From an uncultured Candidatus Saccharibacteria bacterium (lineage in GTDB: Bacteria > Patescibacteriota > Minisyncoccia > Phycocordibacterales > DATDWN01): DNA of 64,000 bases. The stretch covers positions 75,923-139,922 of the forward strand of contig CAYRRP010000001.1 of the NCBI GenBank assembly GCA_964426735.1, in the 5' to 3' direction. This document shows positions 43,095 to 56,951 of this stretch, piece by piece. Made by a program: the position numbers and the translations under genes. Below the pieces are notes generated by a model. The model saw nothing but the letters and a program-made list of their open reading frames with translations, was not told the origin of the DNA and did not search any database. How positions within the stretch are numbered: position 1 is the first letter of the stretch; every line of letters starts with the position of its first letter.

Positions 43095-44342
<1,248 letters not shown>

Positions 44343-44618
44343 TATAATTTAAAACAACACGCATAAACTTTTGGTAAAGTTTTGCTATGCTCGCCAATCA
44401 AGAAAAATAATTGACTTCTGACGGCTACCTTCTCGCAAACTCGTCGAGGAATACCTCTCCTCAAACAGTGCTTCAGGTTGCGCCGTCTCTGATGAGTACA
44501 TCAGGCAGTCGTTATTTTCTAATTGGCTGTGCAATGTTGTTTTTAAATTACATTAAAATAAACTGAATGCTGTTGCAATTATTTTGAGATTGTTTTATTC
44601 TAAATTCAGGAGGTGTAT

Positions 44619-44826
44619 ATGCGAATTGATTTTCGCAAATGGAATGGTTCTTGAACGAAGGGAGGTGGTAAACCTACGGCACACCTCCTGTGTGCTGGCG
44701 GGTGAAATCCCGCAAAGATGAATATTGAGGAAAGGGGAAGGTGGAGGAGGTGAAATTGCTATCCCTGTAGCTTTTATCACCTCCTTTCACATCATTCTCG
44801 TAGACGGCATATGCCGTTTTTTCTTT
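44619..44826 (+). promoter_or_regulatory. structured leader upstream of uvrB: SD plus 11-codon ORF, GC-rich hairpins, intrinsic terminator
   Basis: AGGAGGTG-N5-ATG encoding MRIDFRKWNGS (44619-44654). Then hairpins GGAGGTG...CACCTCC (twice) and GGCGGGTGAAATCCCGC. Ends with ACGGCATATGCCGT plus a T-run at 44803-44826, 44 nt before the uvrB start. Confidence 0.45.
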
Positions 44827-44869
44827 TGCATGCTCTGTATTTAAATTGTTCACGTGGTATAGTAATCTC

Positions 44870-46993
44870 ATGTCAGAGGTCTTTAAACTTAAAAATGACT
44901 ATCTCCCTGCAGGAGACCAACCAAAAGCGATTGAATCGCTTGTTTCTGGTGTAAAAAAGGGTCTCAGACACCAGACCTTGGTGGGTGTTACAGGTTCAGG
45001 AAAGACTTTTACAGCGGCAAATGTGATTGCCCAAATCGGTAAACCGACTCTCGTAATCGCTCACAACAAAACTCTCGCCGCCCAGCTCGCCCAAGAGTAC
45101 CGAGAGTTTTTCCCAGACAATGCAGTGCATTATTTTGTATCCTACTACGACTACTATCAGCCAGAGGCCTACATGCCGACGACCGATACCTTTATTGAAA
45201 AAGAAGCGACAATCAATGAAGAGATTGAGCGTCTTCGACACGCATCGACCCAAGCACTCCTCACTCGTAAAGATGTGATTATCGTTGCGTCCGTATCGTG
45301 TATTTATGGTCTCGGAAGTCCCATTGAATACGAAAAAGTAAATATGAAGATAGAGCAAGGAATGAAAATCACTCGTGCGGACTTTATTCGTCGCCTTGTC
45401 GATATTCATTTTGAGCGTACTCCTGCTGACCTCACACCAGGAAGTTTTCGTGCGCTTGGTAACACGGTGGAGATCATGCCTGTGTCAGAAAAGATTGTCT
45501 TTCGTATTGAACTTTCACCAGATGGTATTACTGAAATATTAAAACTCGATCCAGTGACTCGTAGTGTACTTGAAACGGTACGTGTATTTTATCTTTTCCC
45601 CGCAAAGCACTTTATCAGTAGCAAAGAAGCGTCAGAAAAAGCATTTAAGACTATCAAAGCAGAGCTCGCATCTCAGCTCAAAAAATTTGAAAAAGAAGGA
45701 AAAGTTCTCGAAGCGGAGCGTATCAAGCGCCGCACCACTTATGACCTCGCCATGATCAAGGAAATGGGATACTGCAGTGGTATTGAAAACTATTCACGAC
45801 ACTTTTCAGGTAAACTTCCTGGAGAAGCTCCTGATACTCTCATTTCATATTTTCCACACAATGCGGATGGTACTCCAGACTTTTTGACGATTATCGATGA
45901 GTCACATGTGACCGTACCTCAGCTTGGTGGTATGTATGCCGGTGATGCGTCACGAAAAGAAACATTGGTAAACTTTGGTTTTCGTCTTCCGTCTGCAAAA
46001 GATAACCGCCCGCTTAAGTTTGAAGAATTTGAAAAAAGTGTAGGGCAAACTATATATACAACAGCAACACCGAGTGTGTATGAAAAGGAAAAGAGTCAAA
46101 ACATGGTTGAACAGGTGATTCGTCCGACAGGACTGACTGATCCGTTGGTTGAAGTACGACCGGTTATTGAAAGAGGAAAATATAAAGGACAGATTTTTGA
46201 TTTGATTGCAGAAGCAGAAAAAGAAATCAAAAAAGGTGGGCGCGTGATTGCAACCACGCTCACTAAAAAAATGGCAGAAGACCTGACTGAATTTCTGAAA
46301 GAGAAAAAAATAAAAGCAGAGTATATTCATAGTGATATTAAAACTATTCAGCGTATTGAAATCCTCACTGAGTTTCGTCGAGGAACATTTGATGTGATAG
46401 TGGGAGTAAACTTGCTTCGAGAAGGACTCGATCTTCCAGAGGTAACGTTGATTGGTATTTTGGATGCGGATAAAGAAGGTTTTCTTCGTTCTGAGACTGC
46501 ACTTGTGCAGATTATTGGGCGTGCAGCACGAAATGTGGAGGGGCGAGTGATTTTGTATGCAGACAACATGACCGGTTCTATGGAGCGAGCGATGGCAGAG
46601 ACTAAGCGTCGTCGAGATATTCAGATTGCATATAATACAAAACACGGTATTACTCCAAAAACAATCATTAAACAAATCAAAGATATTACCGATCAGTTGC
46701 AGTCAAAACACGACAAGACAGTACTTGGCATGATTGCGTTTGATCAGAAAATGATGGGAGGTGAAGCGAAACTCACACGCAAGGGAATTGAAAAATTGAT
46801 CAAACATAAAGAGCGTCAGATGCAGGCTTCGGTAAAGATACTCGACTTTGAAACTGCGGCACTCTTACGCGATGAGCTCAAAAAACTGATAGAAATGAAA
46901 GAGAGTAAAGCTGATATAGAAGTGAAAGCCGAAGATTTTAGTGTAGTGATCAAACCAGAGCTTGGAGTTCCTGGTAAAAAGAAAAAAGGCTAA
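44870..46993 (+). CDS. uvrB: excinuclease ABC subunit B
   Basis: Helicase motifs (VTGSGKTFTAANVIAQ), a beta-hairpin region and a C-terminal UVR domain. TATAGT-N6-ATG leaderless arrangement at 44858-44872. Confidence 0.9.
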   Translation: MSEVFKLKNDYLPAGDQPKAIESLVSGVKKGLRHQTLVGVTGSGKTFTAANVIAQIGKPTLVIAHNKTLAAQLAQEYREFFPDNAVHYFVSYYDYYQPEAYMPTTDTFIEKEATINEEIERLRHASTQALLTRKDVIIVASVSCIYGLGSPIEYEKVNMKIEQGMKITRADFIRRLVDIHFERTPADLTPGSFRALGNTVEIMPVSEKIVFRIELSPDGITEILKLDPVTRSVLETVRVFYLFPAKHFISSKEASEKAFKTIKAELASQLKKFEKEGKVLEAERIKRRTTYDLAMIKEMGYCSGIENYSRHFSGKLPGEAPDTLISYFPHNADGTPDFLTIIDESHVTVPQLGGMYAGDASRKETLVNFGFRLPSAKDNRPLKFEEFEKSVGQTIYTTATPSVYEKEKSQNMVEQVIRPTGLTDPLVEVRPVIERGKYKGQIFDLIAEAEKEIKKGGRVIATTLTKKMAEDLTEFLKEKKIKAEYIHSDIKTIQRIEILTEFRRGTFDVIVGVNLLREGLDLPEVTLIGILDADKEGFLRSETALVQIIGRAARNVEGRVILYADNMTGSMERAMAETKRRRDIQIAYNTKHGITPKTIIKQIKDITDQLQSKHDKTVLGMIAFDQKMMGGEAKLTRKGIEKLIKHKERQMQASVKILDFETAALLRDELKKLIEMKESKADIEVKAEDFSVVIKPELGVPGKKKKG

Positions 46994-47131: not shown

Positions 47132-47629
47132 ATGCGATTTGTTGTATCATACCGATTTGTGAGACATGCGGATATCAAAAAGATGGGAAAAAGATATTTT
47201 AAACTCTTGCCCTTATGGGTTCAGAATGCGTTAAAACCTCAATCTGTGATAATAATCGCTCCTTCATCAGATGATGCGGAGCGTATCAAAAAAAGTGGAA
47301 GTATCCGGCATAACGAAAAAGTTTTCACGGTTGTATTTGGAAACGATATCAAAGGTGCATATGTGGAATTGTTTACACAGATAATCAAATGTTCTATTGA
47401 TATTGATCCTCAGCGACGCCAACTGTTTCATCGTTATGTGCAGAATTTATATGATCCATGTGGTTTTTTGCAGAAAAAAGATGTTGCTTCTGCACTTTAC
47501 ACGCATCTTACGTTGTATCTTTTGCGGAATGATGAATTCTTGAATCGAAACGAAGAGCGTCGCGTATTGTGTGAGGAGATTGTACGAGATATCAATGCTC
47601 TCGTGCTTCCGTACGGCGCCCTACAATAG
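47132..47629 (+). CDS. hypothetical protein (165 aa) between uvrB and uvrA
   Basis: Strong SD CAGGAGGAAAGGAA before the ATG. The terminator hairpin includes its stop codon. Confidence 0.5.
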   Translation: MRFVVSYRFVRHADIKKMGKRYFKLLPLWVQNALKPQSVIIIAPSSDDAERIKKSGSIRHNEKVFTVVFGNDIKGAYVELFTQIIKCSIDIDPQRRQLFHRYVQNLYDPCGFLQKKDVASALYTHLTLYLLRNDEFLNRNEERRVLCEEIVRDINALVLPYGALQ

Positions 47630-53592: not shown

Positions 53593-53997
53593 TCACCAGA
53601 CAATGCCTTCCTTCTGGAAAACATCAATAGTGTCTCTTTGCTGTCTCCAACAATCATGGATTGCCTGAGACTGTCTCTTCATGGCGCCGATTCCGCCCGG
53701 CTTCGTGGTCCACAGCACTGCACCGAATTTACATTTGTAGTTGCCAGGATGAAATGGTGCGGATTCACTTTTTTGATCCAGATTCTTTATCTGGACATAC
53801 CGCAAATTGTCGGCGGTCACTTGCAGTTTTTTTGCGTACTGGTCTACGCAATCCCAATGAGCTAGCCGTTTCTTTTCCTGAGAACGGTTCGGGTCTTTTA
53901 CGTTGAAAACGTACAAGCCATTTTCGCACGTATATTCCTTTGTCTCACCGAACACAACCCCAGCCGCAGCCAGGGCAATTACTAGTATGAAGAACAT
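53593..53997 (-). CDS. secreted cysteine-containing small protein (GC-elevated)
   Basis: 134 aa with a signal peptide-like N-terminus and 4 Cys. About 47% GC. Confidence 0.45.
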   Translation of the reverse strand: MFFILVIALAAAGVVFGETKEYTCENGLYVFNVKDPNRSQEKKRLAHWDCVDQYAKKLQVTADNLRYVQIKNLDQKSESAPFHPGNYKCKFGAVLWTTKPGGIGAMKRQSQAIHDCWRQQRDTIDVFQKEGIVW

Positions 53998-56872: not shown

Positions 56873-56878
56873 CGTTTG

Positions 56879-56951
56879 TGGACCGTACAGGACTCGAACC
56901 TGCCACCCCATCATTGCAAATGATGTGCTCTACCAGATGAGCTAACGGCCC
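56879..56951 (-). tRNA. tRNA-Ala (anticodon UGC)
   Basis: Minus-strand GGGCCGTTAGCTCATCTGGTAGAGCACATCATTTGCAATGATGGGGTGGCAGGTTCGAGTCCTGTACGGTCCA. G3:U70 Ala identity pair, D-loop AGCTCA..GGTAGAGC, T-loop GGTTCGAGTCC, anticodon loop TTTGCAA. CCA not encoded. Confidence 0.85.

What the first reader, a model, noticed from the sequence alone, without database searches (positions are those of the whole stretch)
44343..44869. About 500-nt gap before uvrB holds a structured GC-rich leader with an 11-codon ORF and an intrinsic terminator
Between tgt and uvrB there is a strong SD (AGGAGGTG) 5 nt before an ATG encoding MRIDFRKWNGS (44619-44654). Three GC-rich hairpins follow; two are built on GGAGGTG/CACCTCC and so could alternatively pair with the SD. 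Then comes a perfect terminator ACGGCATATGCCGT plus T-run only 44 nt upstream of the apparently leaderless uvrB start. The layout (leader peptide, alternative SD/anti-SD hairpins, terminator) resembles a transcription-attenuation or riboswitch-like control element, or an independent small RNA. That is unusual in front of a nucleotide-excision-repair gene.
Basis: seen in the sequence. Interest (0 to 1): 0.5.

Follow-up and report, generated by a model that had tools for sequence, protein, structure and literature searches.

The report
Conserved mini-ORF small RNA gene
The gap before uvrB in this candidate-phyla-radiation bacterium holds a self-contained, evolutionarily conserved small gene, not a uvrB control leader: it has its own promoter, a strong ribosome-binding site, a 7-23-codon reading frame, a folded RNA carrying ribosome-binding-like motifs and its own terminator, and its function is unknown.

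Summary
The window comes from a Patescibacteria (Paceibacteria) genome. Nine close relatives (Tgt 88-95% identical) have silent sites that are almost saturated (38-58% identity). All nine carry the same unit between tgt and uvrB:
- a promoter (TTGCAA-17-TATTCT);
- a strong Shine-Dalgarno (SD) site plus ATG;
- a mini-ORF, with a D-F-R-K-W core in six of them;
- a G-rich SD-like site masked in a hairpin;
- a second purine-rich SD-like run;
- a long hairpin;
- a conserved intrinsic terminator.

A 42-nt block is 41/42 identical in two relatives. Three relatives keep GGRGGTGATCCAG exactly and three more differ by one base. This motif is the complement of the universal 16S rRNA 3' tail.

The unit matches no Rfam family and is single-copy. 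It is not tied to uvrB. uvrB has its own deeply conserved leaderless promoter (TGnTATAGT, 6 nt, ATG), other small genes lie between the unit and uvrB in some relatives, and no conserved antiterminator exists.

Most genes in the window lack SD sites (3 of 57 have one) and many look leaderless, so three GGAGGTG motifs within 220 nt stand out.

Best reading: an autonomous small gene combining a short ORF and a small RNA that works through ribosome binding. That mechanism is inferred, not shown.

The parts
43137..44342 (+). tgt (tRNA-guanine transglycosylase) coding sequence; upstream neighbour
   Evidence: ORF. Homologues are 100-60% identical and carry Pfam PF01702. Synteny with uvrB holds in 109 loci.
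44365..44388 (+). AU-rich hairpin AAACUUU-UGGU-AAAGUUU with a U-rich tail; probable tgt terminator
   Evidence: In L161 the stem reads AAAUCGC / GCGAUUU. Both arms changed and pairing is kept.
44420..44520 (.). Second, separate structured element ('region A') of unknown strand and function, bracketed by the inverted repeat 44346-44360 / 44536-44551
   Evidence: Fold z = -2.6 on the + strand and -3.75 on the - strand. It is 87% identical to L161, although 4-fold sites in tgt are only 54% identical. No Rfam match.
44573..44601 (+). Inferred promoter of the small gene: -35 TTGCAA (44573-44578), 17-nt spacer, -10 TATTCT (44596-44601)
   Evidence: It matches 8 of 12 consensus positions, which is below the scan threshold. 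TTGCAA is invariant in 7 relatives, and the 40-nt region is 35-38/40 identical in L002, L004 and L166. Inferred from conservation, not mapped.
44608..44615 (+). SD1: AGGAGGTG, probably at or within a few nt of the RNA 5' end
   Evidence: An SD-like motif followed by ATG 4-10 nt later is kept in 9 of 10 close relatives.
44619..44654 (+). Mini-ORF of 11 codons plus TGA: MRIDFRKWNGS
   Evidence: Orthologous mini-ORFs run 7-23 codons. The core x-F-R-K-W varies only at third codon positions (TTT/TTC, CGC/CGT, AAA/AAG) in window, L002, L162, L164 and L166, with TGG replacing the Phe codon in L004 and AAA replacing the Trp codon in L168.
44660..44669 (+). SD2': GGGAGGTGGT, an SD-like site with no start codon after it, 5 nt after the stop codon
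   Evidence: Predicted duplex with the canonical 16S 3' tail is -22 kcal/mol, against -12 to -14 for an ordinary SD. The orthologous site reads GGRGGTGATCCAG exactly in L001, L003 and L004, and with one substitution each in L165, L166 and L012 (L164 has a one-G-shorter run).
44661..44697 (+). Bistable hairpin region. P2a pairs GGAGGUG (44661-67) with CACCUCC (44682-88). P2b spans 44677-44697 with loop CUCCU.
   Evidence: Energies are -25.3 versus -26.2 kcal/mol. The block 44675-44716 is 41/42 identical in both L002 and L162.
44698..44713 (+). P3 hairpin GCGGG-UGAAAU-CCCGC
   Evidence: A short hairpin of different sequence sits at the same place in L001 (ACGGGU/ACCCGU), L003 (UUCCC/GGGAA), L164 (CCAC/GUGG) and L012 (UGCC/GGCA).
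44727..44753 (+). SD3: purine-rich run GAGGAAAGGGGAAGGTGGAGGAGGTGA. Its 3' half forms the 5' arm of P5.
   Evidence: The orthologous motif is GAAAGGAGG or AAGGAGGTG in all relatives. It is not followed by a conserved start codon or ORF.
44735..44799 (+). P5 long hairpin. Its 3' arm ATCACCTCCTTTC (44776-44788) is identical to the canonical 16S rRNA 3' tail sequence.
   Evidence: Pair list. A hairpin is present in every relative. The helix base pairs in 87% of alignment cells, with one-sided G-C/G-U/A-U changes only.
44789..44802 (+). Conserved AU-rich linker (CACATCATTCTCGT) between P5 and the terminator
   Evidence: Aligned. The relatives read CUUUUCAUAUCAUU.. before A(G/A)ACGGC.
44803..44827 (+). 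Intrinsic terminator: stem 44803-08 / 44813-18, loop AUAU, then TTTTTTCTTTT
   Evidence: Conserved in 8 relatives, with three stem pairs changed on both sides (for example L162 ACGCC/GGCGU).
44855..44872 (+). uvrB's own extended -10 (TGGTATAGT, 44855-44863), 6 nt, then ATG (44870): a leaderless start
   Evidence: The same geometry is found in at least 44 of 119 related loci and at many other genes of the window.
44870..46993 (+). uvrB coding sequence; downstream neighbour, not part of the unit
   Evidence: tblastn identity to relatives is 65-95%. Pfam UvrB domains are recorded in relatives.

Best explanation
Positions 44573-44827 are an autonomous, lineage-specific small gene lodged between tgt and uvrB.

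The sequence and its conservation show the following.
- A conserved promoter.
- An RNA of about 215 nt that starts almost directly at a strong SD.
- A translatable mini-ORF: 11 codons here, 7-23 in relatives.
- A folded, purine-rich 3' part with two further SD-like sites, SD2' and SD3, that are not followed by ORFs.
- Anti-SD-like pyrimidine arms that can mask those sites.
- A constitutive intrinsic terminator.

The mechanism below is inferred.
- A ribosome loads at SD1 and translates the mini-ORF.
- When it reaches the stop codon it covers or melts the hairpin that masks SD2. The C-rich partner lies inside the ORF or right after it in six relatives. In the window SD2' itself lies 5 nt after the stop.
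- That switches a bistable helix and changes which 16S-tail-complementary or 16S-tail-like segments are exposed.
- The RNA therefore works through contact with the 16S 3' tail of the ribosome. The contact could protect the RNA itself, as a ribosome-bound 5' stabiliser does, or hold 30S subunits.

It does not control uvrB. uvrB is transcribed as a leaderless mRNA from its own promoter, and the terminator insulates that promoter from the unit.

The RNA, rather than the peptide, is the most conserved product.
For: - **Conservation.** The same architecture sits between tgt and uvrB in L001-L004, L162, L164, L165, L166 and L168/170/171. Four-fold sites in tgt are only 38-58% identical, yet a 42-nt block is 41/42 identical in L002 and L162 and the promoter is 35-38/40 identical.
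- **Translation signals.** SD plus ATG at 4-10 nt is kept in 9 of 10 close relatives. The F-R-K codons vary only at third positions.
- **16S complementarity.** GGRGGTGATCCAG is exact in L001, L003 and L004. In L165 and L166 the single change would still give a G-U wobble with the 16S tail. L012 has a one-base mismatch and L164 a one-G-shorter run. In the first 80 loci the motif occurs only inside these units. Predicted duplexes with the canonical 16S tail are -22 to -32 kcal/mol, against -12 to -14 for normal SDs.
- **Masking helix.** The helix that masks SD2 keeps pairing through changes on both arms, for example L004 versus L164 (sequences). In the window the two alternative structures are within 1 kcal/mol.
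- **Structure counts.** For the terminator and the base of P5, 88.5% of cells pair, against 47-75% in slid controls. Four pairs show changes on both sides.
- **Copy number.** The unit is single-copy and occurs only at the orthologous site in 1.2 Mb searched.
- **RNA over peptide.** L168/170/171 have lost the ATG (now ATA) and the Trp codon but keep SD1, SD3, P5, the linker and the terminator.
- **Genomic context.** Only 3 of 57 gene starts in the window have an SD, and 23 of 57 look leaderless.
- **Independence from uvrB.**
Against: - No transcript data exist. The promoter matches only 8 of 12 consensus positions, and the transcription start is inferred.
- The 16S rRNA of this organism was not available. 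Complementarity is to the universal bacterial 3' tail, which is general knowledge rather than a test made here.
- The peptide is not conserved across the whole clade. L001 and L165 share GLP(D/E)P, and L003 is unrelated.
- The third-position pattern is equally synonymous in one antisense frame (H-L-R), so it does not by itself prove + strand coding.
- SD2 takes two different forms and topologies: GGTGATCCAG with an upstream C-rich partner, or GGTGGTAA with a downstream partner. In L168 it is absent.
- Purine-rich and pyrimidine-rich arms of any stable hairpin in an AT-rich genome will look somewhat like SD and anti-SD.
- Covariation in P5 is one-sided only.
- What the RNA does after binding a ribosome is unknown.
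Confidence: 0.6

Rival explanations
1. A plain micro-protein gene. The 7-20-residue peptide with the core (I/V)-D-F-R-K-W is the only functional product, for example a signalling or ribosome-acting peptide. The downstream hairpins only stabilise and terminate the mRNA.
For: SD plus ATG is conserved. The F-R-K(-W) codons change only at synonymous third positions in window, L002, L162, L164 and L166. After the core, K-W-F-(P/L)-stop recurs in L002, L162 and L164.
Against: - The peptide is replaced by unrelated sequences in L001, L165 and L003.
- It is lost in L168/170/171 (ATA instead of ATG, Trp changed to Lys) while the RNA modules persist.
- The non-coding 42-nt block and the GGTGATCCAG motif are more strictly conserved than the peptide.
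- No receptor, exporter or processing gene lies nearby.
Confidence: 0.15
2. The unit is a cis-acting leader of uvrB: a leader-peptide attenuator or riboswitch-like element whose terminator is conditionally read through into uvrB.
For: A leader ORF, alternative SD/anti-SD helices and a terminator 44 nt before uvrB all lie on the same strand.
Against: - uvrB has its own conserved extended -10, 6 nt before the ATG, and no SD. A read-through transcript would present an internal AUG without an SD.
- 350-700 nt, in L002, L162 and L003 with other promoter-ORF-terminator units, separate the unit from uvrB in L002, L162, L003 and L168.
- tgt-uvrB spacers range from 2 to 3097 nt, and most lack the unit.
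- No conserved antiterminator exists; the candidate UACGGCA fails to co-vary in L162.
- No Rfam leader or riboswitch matches.
- The unit shows no special complementarity to the uvrB 5' end: z from -1.25 to +0.5.
Confidence: 0.05
3. A protein-titrating or protein-regulated RNA of the CsrB/RsmZ kind. Several GGA-containing SD-like sites (SD1, SD2, SD3) bind a CsrA-type regulator rather than the ribosome.
For: - The 219-nt unit holds seven GGA motifs, two of them in probably single-stranded contexts (SD1 and GAGGAAAGG).
- True csrA homologues exist in this bacterial group, directly after uvrB in L026 and L080.
- The minimal L168 version keeps two GGA sites about 35 nt apart.
Against: - No csrA was found in the 64-kb window or in the close relatives' loci.
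- The csrA leaders of L026 and L080 show the classical GGA-in-hairpin-loop sites (GACGC-AGGAU-GCGUC). The unit has none of these; its GGAs lie in stems or linkers, and the P3 loops lack GGA.
- This reading does not explain the conserved extension GAUCCAG, which fits the 16S tail.
Confidence: 0.1
4. Not a + strand RNA gene at all. Either it is a small protein gene on the - strand (61- and 65-codon ORFs, 44595-44780 and 44674-44871), or it is neutral or repeat-derived (MITE/REP-like) GC-rich spacer DNA.
For: - The - strand is pyrimidine-rich and therefore poor in stop codons. Stop-free runs of 60-89 codons occur in several relatives.
- The - strand folds even better than the + strand.
- An inverted repeat brackets the neighbouring region A.
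Against: - Antisense frames are not kept. The runs are only 30-54 codons in L165, L004 and L168; unit lengths differ by non-multiples of 3; no conserved start exists; and only the 12 nt opposite FRKW are shared.
- The terminator is unidirectional, with its T-run on the + strand only.
- There is no second copy in the window or in 1.2 Mb of loci.
- Conservation of 41/42 against about 50% at silent sites excludes neutrality.
Confidence: 0.04

Closest known systems
Leader-peptide (ribosome-mediated) attenuators such as ermC/ermB, cat and trp leaders, and short arrest peptides such as PepNL (14 aa; PMC11890864)
   Same: A very short ORF with a strong SD. A conserved C-terminal peptide core in one sub-clade. 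RNA helices whose pairing would change when a ribosome sits at the end of the ORF. A downstream intrinsic terminator.
   Different: No regulated gene is attached. uvrB has its own leaderless promoter, and other units intervene in relatives. No terminator/antiterminator alternative exists. The peptide is not conserved clade-wide. Arrest was not tested.
Ribosome-dependent 5' stabilisers (STAB-SD of cry3A; the strong SD of B. subtilis hbs mRNA that blocks RNase J1, PMC5737220)
   Same: A strong SD-like sequence at or near the RNA 5' end. Additional SD-like sites have no ORF behind them, so their role would be ribosome or 30S binding rather than protein synthesis.
   Different: Those elements protect a downstream protein-coding mRNA. 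Here nothing but a structured RNA of about 170 nt follows. The presence of RNase J in this genome was not tested. The complementarity of SD2 (10-17 nt) is far longer.
icaR mRNA of Staphylococcus aureus: an anti-SD-like UCCCCUG motif in the 3' UTR pairs with the SD of the same mRNA (PMC3868564)
   Same: The same molecule carries SD sequences and downstream C/U-rich anti-SD-like segments (CACCUCC at 44682; AUCACCUCCUUUC at 44776) able to mask them.
   Different: icaR encodes a full-size repressor. Here the ORF is 11 codons, and the anti-SD-like arms mostly pair with internal SD-like sites (SD2', SD3), not demonstrably with SD1.
Retained strong SD on rpsU (bS21) in the SD-blind Bacteroidia, used for autoregulation through availability of the 16S 3' tail (PMC9976891, PMC13000453)
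   Same: In a genome that rarely uses SDs (3 of 57 starts here), an unusually long SD complement marks one special locus. That suggests regulation through the state of the 16S 3' tail.
   Different: This is a different phylum. The gene here is not a ribosomal protein. Sequestration of the anti-SD in Patescibacteria ribosomes is unknown, and many genes here are leaderless instead.
CsrB/RsmZ-type GGA-repeat sponge RNAs
   Same: A small, terminator-ended RNA with several GGA/SD-like motifs. csrA exists in related genomes.
   Different: The GGA motifs are not displayed in hairpin loops. No csrA was seen near the unit. The conserved GAUCCAG extension is unexplained by CsrA binding.

Membership tests
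Ribosome-mediated transcription attenuator (trp/erm type) | Short leader ORF with a translation start | tested here: met
   SD1 plus ATG plus 11 codons. SD plus ATG is kept in 9 of 10 close relatives.
Ribosome-mediated transcription attenuator (trp/erm type) | Mutually exclusive antiterminator and terminator helices coupled to ribosome position | tested here: not met
   The only upstream match to a terminator arm (UACGGCA, 44676-82) is about 120 nt away and does not co-vary with the changed terminator of L162. The L004-type units lack it. The bistable helix does not involve the terminator.
Ribosome-mediated transcription attenuator (trp/erm type) | The regulated gene is co-transcribed directly downstream and depends on read-through | tested here: not met
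   uvrB has its own conserved leaderless promoter. 350-700 nt, in L002, L162 and L003 with further small units, intervene in L002, L162, L003 and L168.
Known riboswitch or cis-regulatory RNA family (Rfam 15) | Covariance-model match at or near the gathering score | tested here: not met
   No hit in the gap at gathering threshold. The best sub-threshold hit is 27.7 bits against a gathering score of 50 (sRNA71, driven by the hairpin plus terminator). There are no hits in 25 related loci.
Rho-independent (intrinsic) terminator | GC-rich hairpin directly followed by a U-run, conserved with compensatory changes | tested here: met
   Three stem pairs changed on both sides across relatives, and 91.7% of cells pair.
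Dual-function small RNA (sORF-bearing sRNA such as SgrS, RNAIII or SR1) | Own promoter and terminator delimiting a short transcript | tested here: inconclusive
   Both elements are conserved in sequence and position. No transcript ends are available.
Dual-function small RNA (sORF-bearing sRNA such as SgrS, RNAIII or SR1) | Translated small ORF | tested here: inconclusive
   SD/ATG conservation and a third-position substitution pattern support it. The pattern is also synonymous in one antisense frame, and the ATG is lost in L168.
Dual-function small RNA (sORF-bearing sRNA such as SgrS, RNAIII or SR1) | Base-pairing with target mRNAs | not testable with these tools
   Only 64 kb of the genome is available. 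There is no special complementarity to the uvrB 5' end.
CsrB/RsmZ-type protein sponge | Multiple GGA motifs presented in hairpin loops | tested here: not met
   In the predicted folds the GGAs lie in stems or linkers. The P3 loops are UGAAAU, AGC and AUCCUA. Compare the loop sites in the csrA leaders of L026 and L080.
CsrB/RsmZ-type protein sponge | CsrA encoded by the same genome | tested here: inconclusive
   csrA is present in L026 and L080 but was not found in the window or in the close relatives' loci, which cover only part of each genome.
STAB-SD / ribosome-bound 5' stabiliser | SD-like sequence near the 5' end that acts without needing a downstream gene | tested here: inconclusive
   SD1 lies about 7 nt after the inferred -10. 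SD2 and SD3 have no conserved start codon behind them. The 5' end and RNA half-life are not measurable here.
MITE/REP-type repeated element | Multiple dispersed copies | tested here: not met
   One copy in the window and only orthologous copies in 1.2 Mb of loci.

The most novel reading that the evidence does not exclude
The RNA is a ribosome-directed regulator of a kind not yet described. It would be a small RNA carrying a 10-17-nt complement of the whole single-stranded 16S rRNA 3' tail (GGRGGUGAUCCAG, predicted -22 to -32 kcal/mol). Exposure of that complement would be gated by translation of a 7-23-codon ORF on the same molecule. By occupying the anti-SD of 30S subunits, the RNA would shift the balance between the few SD-led genes and the many leaderless or SD-less genes of this Patescibacteria lineage.
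Probability: 0.12. Interest if true: 0.8.

Novelty: new variant of a known kind. Interest (0 to 1): 0.45.

Why it matters
- **Annotation.** The result removes a tempting but wrong label, 'attenuator of a DNA-repair gene'. It shows instead that uvrB in this clade is a leaderless gene with its own deeply conserved promoter.
- **A testable candidate.** No regulatory RNA of candidate-phyla-radiation bacteria has been characterised experimentally, to my knowledge. This is a concrete, conserved candidate with defined ends, motifs and natural variants.
- **Translation initiation.** Three strong SD-like sites sit in one 220-nt RNA, one of them complementary to the whole 16S 3' tail, in a genome where about 5% of genes have an SD and about 40% look leaderless. 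That gives a direct handle on how such organisms use, or spare, the anti-SD.
- **If the peptide matters.** The DFRKW core would be one of the shortest conserved bacterial ORF products.

Tried and rejected
- **Rfam.** Searches of the window (gathering threshold), of the gap (E up to 10) and of 25 related loci found nothing relevant.
- **tRNA and tmRNA.** ARAGORN found only tRNA-Ala at 56878-56951.
- **Metagenome scan with Tgt.** It returned only relatives at 73% identity or less, which lack the unit.
- **Viral contig scan.** The conserved 39-nt block gave no hit.
- **16S 3' end.** A search among the fetched loci found none, so complementarity could not be checked against this lineage's own rRNA.
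- **Longer ORFs.** No longer or frameshifted ORF is conserved on the + strand. The antisense ORFs are not conserved.
- **MAFFT alignment of whole units.** It was too poor for structure work. RNAalifold on the 3' module recovered only part of P5 and the terminator.
- **Covariance model.** The model R1 confirmed the orthologues and weakly picked up L008 (E about 7e-4), but found no extra copies.
- **T-box idea.** GGGUGGUAACC resembles the T-box motif. I rejected it because there is no stem I or specifier, no terminator overlap and no Rfam hit, and the motif is replaced by GGTGATCCAG in other relatives.
- **prfB-like frameshift idea.** AGGGGGUGA occurs in L001. I rejected it because stop codons and spacing are not conserved.
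- **Pairing with uvrB.** Complementarity of the unit to the uvrB 5' end is not above shuffles.
- **CsrA sponge.** Considered after finding csrA in L026 and L080, but the hairpin-loop GGA sites are missing.
- **Literature.** Searches for SD, anti-SD or small RNAs in Patescibacteria returned nothing specific.
Full report
**Observation**

- tgt ends at 44342 and uvrB starts with ATG at 44870, so the gap is 527 nt.
- AGGAGGTG lies at 44608-44615. The ATG at 44619 opens MRIDFRKWNGS, which stops with TGA at 44652-44654.
- Three GC-rich hairpins follow.
- The palindrome ACGGCATATGCCGT (44804-44817) is followed by TTTTTTCTTTT. The consensus scan calls it a terminator.
- The unit folds better than shuffles, with z = -3.95.
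- Three of the seven GGAGGTG on the + strand of the whole 64-kb window lie in this 220-nt stretch, which is also the densest GGAGG spot in the window.
- The first hairpin is bistable. GGAGGUG (44661-67) can pair with CACCUCC (44682-88) at -25.3 kcal/mol. Alternatively, hairpin 44677-44697 forms with CUCCU in its loop at -26.2 kcal/mol.

**Organism and relatives**

Tgt-based searches place the window in the Patescibacteria (Paceibacteria, Zambryskiibacteria-like). tgt-uvrB synteny holds in 109 fetched loci, but the spacer ranges from 2 to 3097 nt.

Close relatives (Tgt 88-95% identical) came from the genome scan (L001-L004) and from Tgt homologues traced to their contigs (L161-L171). Between these genomes, four-fold degenerate sites in tgt are only 38-58% identical. 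Any well-conserved non-coding stretch is therefore under selection.

**What is conserved**

L001-L004, L162, L164, L165, L166 (partial) and L168/170/171 all carry the same unit after tgt. The modules are as follows.
- **Promoter.** A -35 TTGCAA that is invariant, 17 nt, then TATTCT/TAATCT/TAATAT. The 40-nt region is 35-38/40 identical in L002, L004 and L166.
- **SD1 and start.** A strong SD about 7 nt after the -10, then ATG 4-10 nt later.
- **Mini-ORF.** It runs 7-23 codons.
- **SD2.** A G-rich SD-like site with no start codon behind it.
- **P3.** Usually a short hairpin.
- **SD3.** A purine run, GAAAGGAGG or AAGGAGGTG.
- **P5.** A long hairpin with a purine-rich 5' arm and a C/U-rich 3' arm.
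- **Linker.** An AU-rich stretch, CUUUUCAUAUCAUU.
- **Terminator.** A(G/A)ACGGC..GCCGUUUUUUU.

In the window, the block 44675-44716 is 41/42 identical in both L002 and L162.

A profile of the 3' module finds only these orthologous copies in 1.2 Mb, and none elsewhere in the window. A covariance model gives the same result and weakly detects the more distant L008.

On the model-fitted alignment, 88.5% of cells pair, against 47-75% when partners are slid. Four pairs changed on both sides, three of them in the terminator. The P5 base varies on one side only.

The helix that masks SD2 keeps pairing although both arms differ between relatives. The arms are ACCCUCUCCCUAC/GUAGGGAGGGGGU in L004, CCCCUUCCUGUUC/GAACAGGAAGGGG in L164 and CCCCCUCUC/GAGAGGGGG in L165 (sequences).

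No Rfam family matches in the window or in 25 relatives.

**The mini-ORF**

The peptides are:

| Locus | Peptide |
|---|---|
| window | MRIDFRKWNGS |
| L166 | MVDFRKW |
| L164 | MVDFRKWFP |
| L162 | MKKIKHFRKWAPEKWFP |
| L002 | MNGPIGFRKWAPEPSRKWFL |
| L004 | MRTCIIVEWRKW |
| L001 | MMSRGLPDPNAERG |
| L165 | MVFGLPEPPLCTRLYESGEGVVQ |
| L003 | MKTFTVEVIQKIR |

In the FRKW group the core codons differ only at third positions: TTT/TTC, CGC/CGT and AAA/AAG. This fits coding constraint.

There is a caveat. The same changes are synonymous in one antisense frame (H-L-R). That antisense frame has no conserved start, length or flanking sequence, whereas the + strand ORF has a conserved SD, ATG and stop.

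L168/170/171 have ATA in place of ATG and Lys in place of Trp, and they lack SD2 and P3. They still keep the promoter, SD1, SD3, P5, the linker and the terminator. The RNA is therefore the most persistent product.

**The SD-like sites**

- SD2 reads GGRGGTGATCCAG exactly in L001, L003 and L004.
- L164 has a one-G-shorter run before GGTGATCCAG.
- L166 (GATCTAG) and L165 (GGTGGTCCAG) differ by changes that would still give G-U wobbles with the rRNA.
- L012, a 68%-Tgt relative, has GGGGGCGATCCAG followed by AAGGAGGTG at the same roughly 30-nt spacing.
- The window, L002 and L162 have GGGRGGTGGTAA instead.

GGAGGTGATCCAG is the exact complement of the universal bacterial 16S 3' tail, CUGGAUCACCUCC. 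That is established knowledge; this lineage's own 16S could not be retrieved. Predicted duplexes are -22 to -32 kcal/mol, against -12 to -14 for SD1 or a canonical SD.

In the window, the 3' arm of P5 is ATCACCTCCTTTC, identical to the tail itself.

The C-rich partner of SD2 lies inside the mini-ORF (L001, L165, L002) or begins 1-3 nt after its stop (L004, L164, L166). In the window, SD2' starts 5 nt after the stop. A ribosome finishing the ORF would therefore unmask or cover SD2. This step is inference.

**Context**

Of 57 crude gene starts in the window, 23 have a -10-like hexamer ending 4-9 nt before the start codon (background 12%). Only 3 have an SD-like 5-mer (background 2.6%). Leaderless starts are ordinary here and strong SDs are rare. 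The cluster of SD-like sites is therefore notable, and the leaderless uvrB is not.

**Why it is not a uvrB leader**

- uvrB has TGGTATAGT (44855-44863) 6 nt before its ATG. TATAGT, 5-8 nt, start codon is found in at least 44 of 119 related loci, across very different spacers.
- A read-through transcript would carry the uvrB AUG internally, without an SD.
- In L002, L162, L003 and L168/170, 350-700 nt lie between the unit's terminator and uvrB; in L002, L162 and L003 they hold further promoter-ORF-terminator units.
- No conserved antiterminator exists.
- The unit RNA has no special complementarity to the uvrB 5' end.

**Most likely working**

Shown by sequence and conservation: this is an autonomous small gene under purifying selection, with translation signals, maskable SD-like and anti-SD-like segments and a constitutive terminator.

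Inferred: ribosome loading on the mini-ORF remodels the downstream helices, and the RNA acts by binding the 16S 3' tail. The effect could be self-stabilisation, as with the ribosome-bound strong SD of hbs mRNA (PMC5737220), or retention of 30S subunits.

The internal anti-SD-like arms recall the 3'-UTR/SD pairing of icaR (PMC3868564). A single strong-SD locus in an SD-poor genome recalls rpsU in Bacteroidia (PMC9976891, PMC13000453).

I put 0.6 on the core claim (an independent sORF/sRNA gene acting through the ribosome, not on uvrB) and about 0.3 on the specific gating mechanism.

**Rivals**

- A peptide-only gene: 0.15.
- A CsrA-type sponge: 0.1. csrA occurs after uvrB in L026 and L080, but the unit lacks loop-displayed GGA sites.
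- A uvrB attenuator: 0.05.
- An antisense gene, or a neutral or repeat-derived element: 0.04.

**Novelty**

This is an undescribed, lineage-specific RNA/sORF family. It belongs to a known general kind (an sORF-bearing small RNA with SD/anti-SD switching), but has one unusual feature: an extended, conserved complement of the whole 16S 3' tail in a largely SD-less, leaderless genome.

Noticed in passing
window 44343-44572: The first 230 nt of the gap are a separate conserved element. It is 87% identical to L161 over 120 nt, although silent sites in tgt are 54% identical. It holds an AU-rich hairpin after tgt with compensatory changes (44365-44382). It also holds a structured region of about 100 nt (44420-44520) that folds well on both strands and is bracketed by the inverted repeat 44346-44360 / 44536-44551. 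No Rfam match; strand and function unknown.
   Followed up: partly
whole window (gene starts listed): Translation signals are unusual. 23 of 57 gene starts have a TAnnnT hexamer 4-9 nt upstream, which looks leaderless. Only 3 of 57 have an SD-like 5-mer: 31482, 47132 and 53997 (- strand).
   Followed up: partly
window 47132-47629 (+) and 53593-53997 (-): The few SD-led genes are hypothetical proteins with no Pfam match. The 165-aa ORF between uvrB and uvrA starts after TTTCAGGAGGAAAGGAA, which resembles the 5' end of the small gene (TTCAGGAGGTG).
   Followed up: partly
L026 4921-5112; L080 7656-7823: True csrA homologues lie directly downstream of uvrB in two more distant relatives. Their leaders carry classical GGA-in-hairpin-loop sites (GACGC-AGGAU-GCGUC; GAC-AGGGAU-GUC), which suggests CsrA autoregulation in Paceibacteria.
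   Followed up: partly
L002 5850-6230; L162 4700-5400; L003 5430-5750: Between the small gene and uvrB these relatives carry extra promoter-SD-ORF-terminator units. They encode GC-rich, Pro/Ala-rich peptides of about 35-60 aa (for example MYKCHSATMSPPETSS...). The tgt-uvrB spacer looks like a hot spot for small genes.
   Followed up: no
L010 5230-5690; L017 2150-2570; L070 5560-5940: Other relatives have two different conserved structured RNAs in the same spacer. One is an element of about 90 nt (GGUGGGUGAUG...CUACCCACC). The other is a long closed hairpin of about 190 nt (GGAACACGGUUGGA...UCCAACCGUAGUUCC) that is reminiscent of 6S RNA in shape. Neither matches Rfam.
   Followed up: no
window 44628-44630 and the orthologous codon in L164, L166 and L162: The codon before F-R-K-W is GAT, GAT, GAT or CAT in 4 of 7 units. 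These are NAU codons, read by queuosine-modified tRNAs, and the unit lies next to tgt, which makes that modification. This is probably coincidence, because L002, L004 and L168 have GGT or GAA there.
   Followed up: no
window 44727-44734 with 44819-44826: The purine run GAGGAAAG (start of SD3) can pair with the terminator's U-tract and so extend the terminator helix. Its significance is unknown.
   Followed up: no
L174/L175 3960-4300: A relative at 73% Tgt identity has an analogous but non-homologous unit in the same spacer. It has AAGGGAGGT plus ATG plus 17 codons, then GAAGAAAGGAGAAG plus ATG plus 6 codons, then hairpins and a terminator. The SD-led mini-ORF style recurs beyond the family described here.
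   Followed up: no
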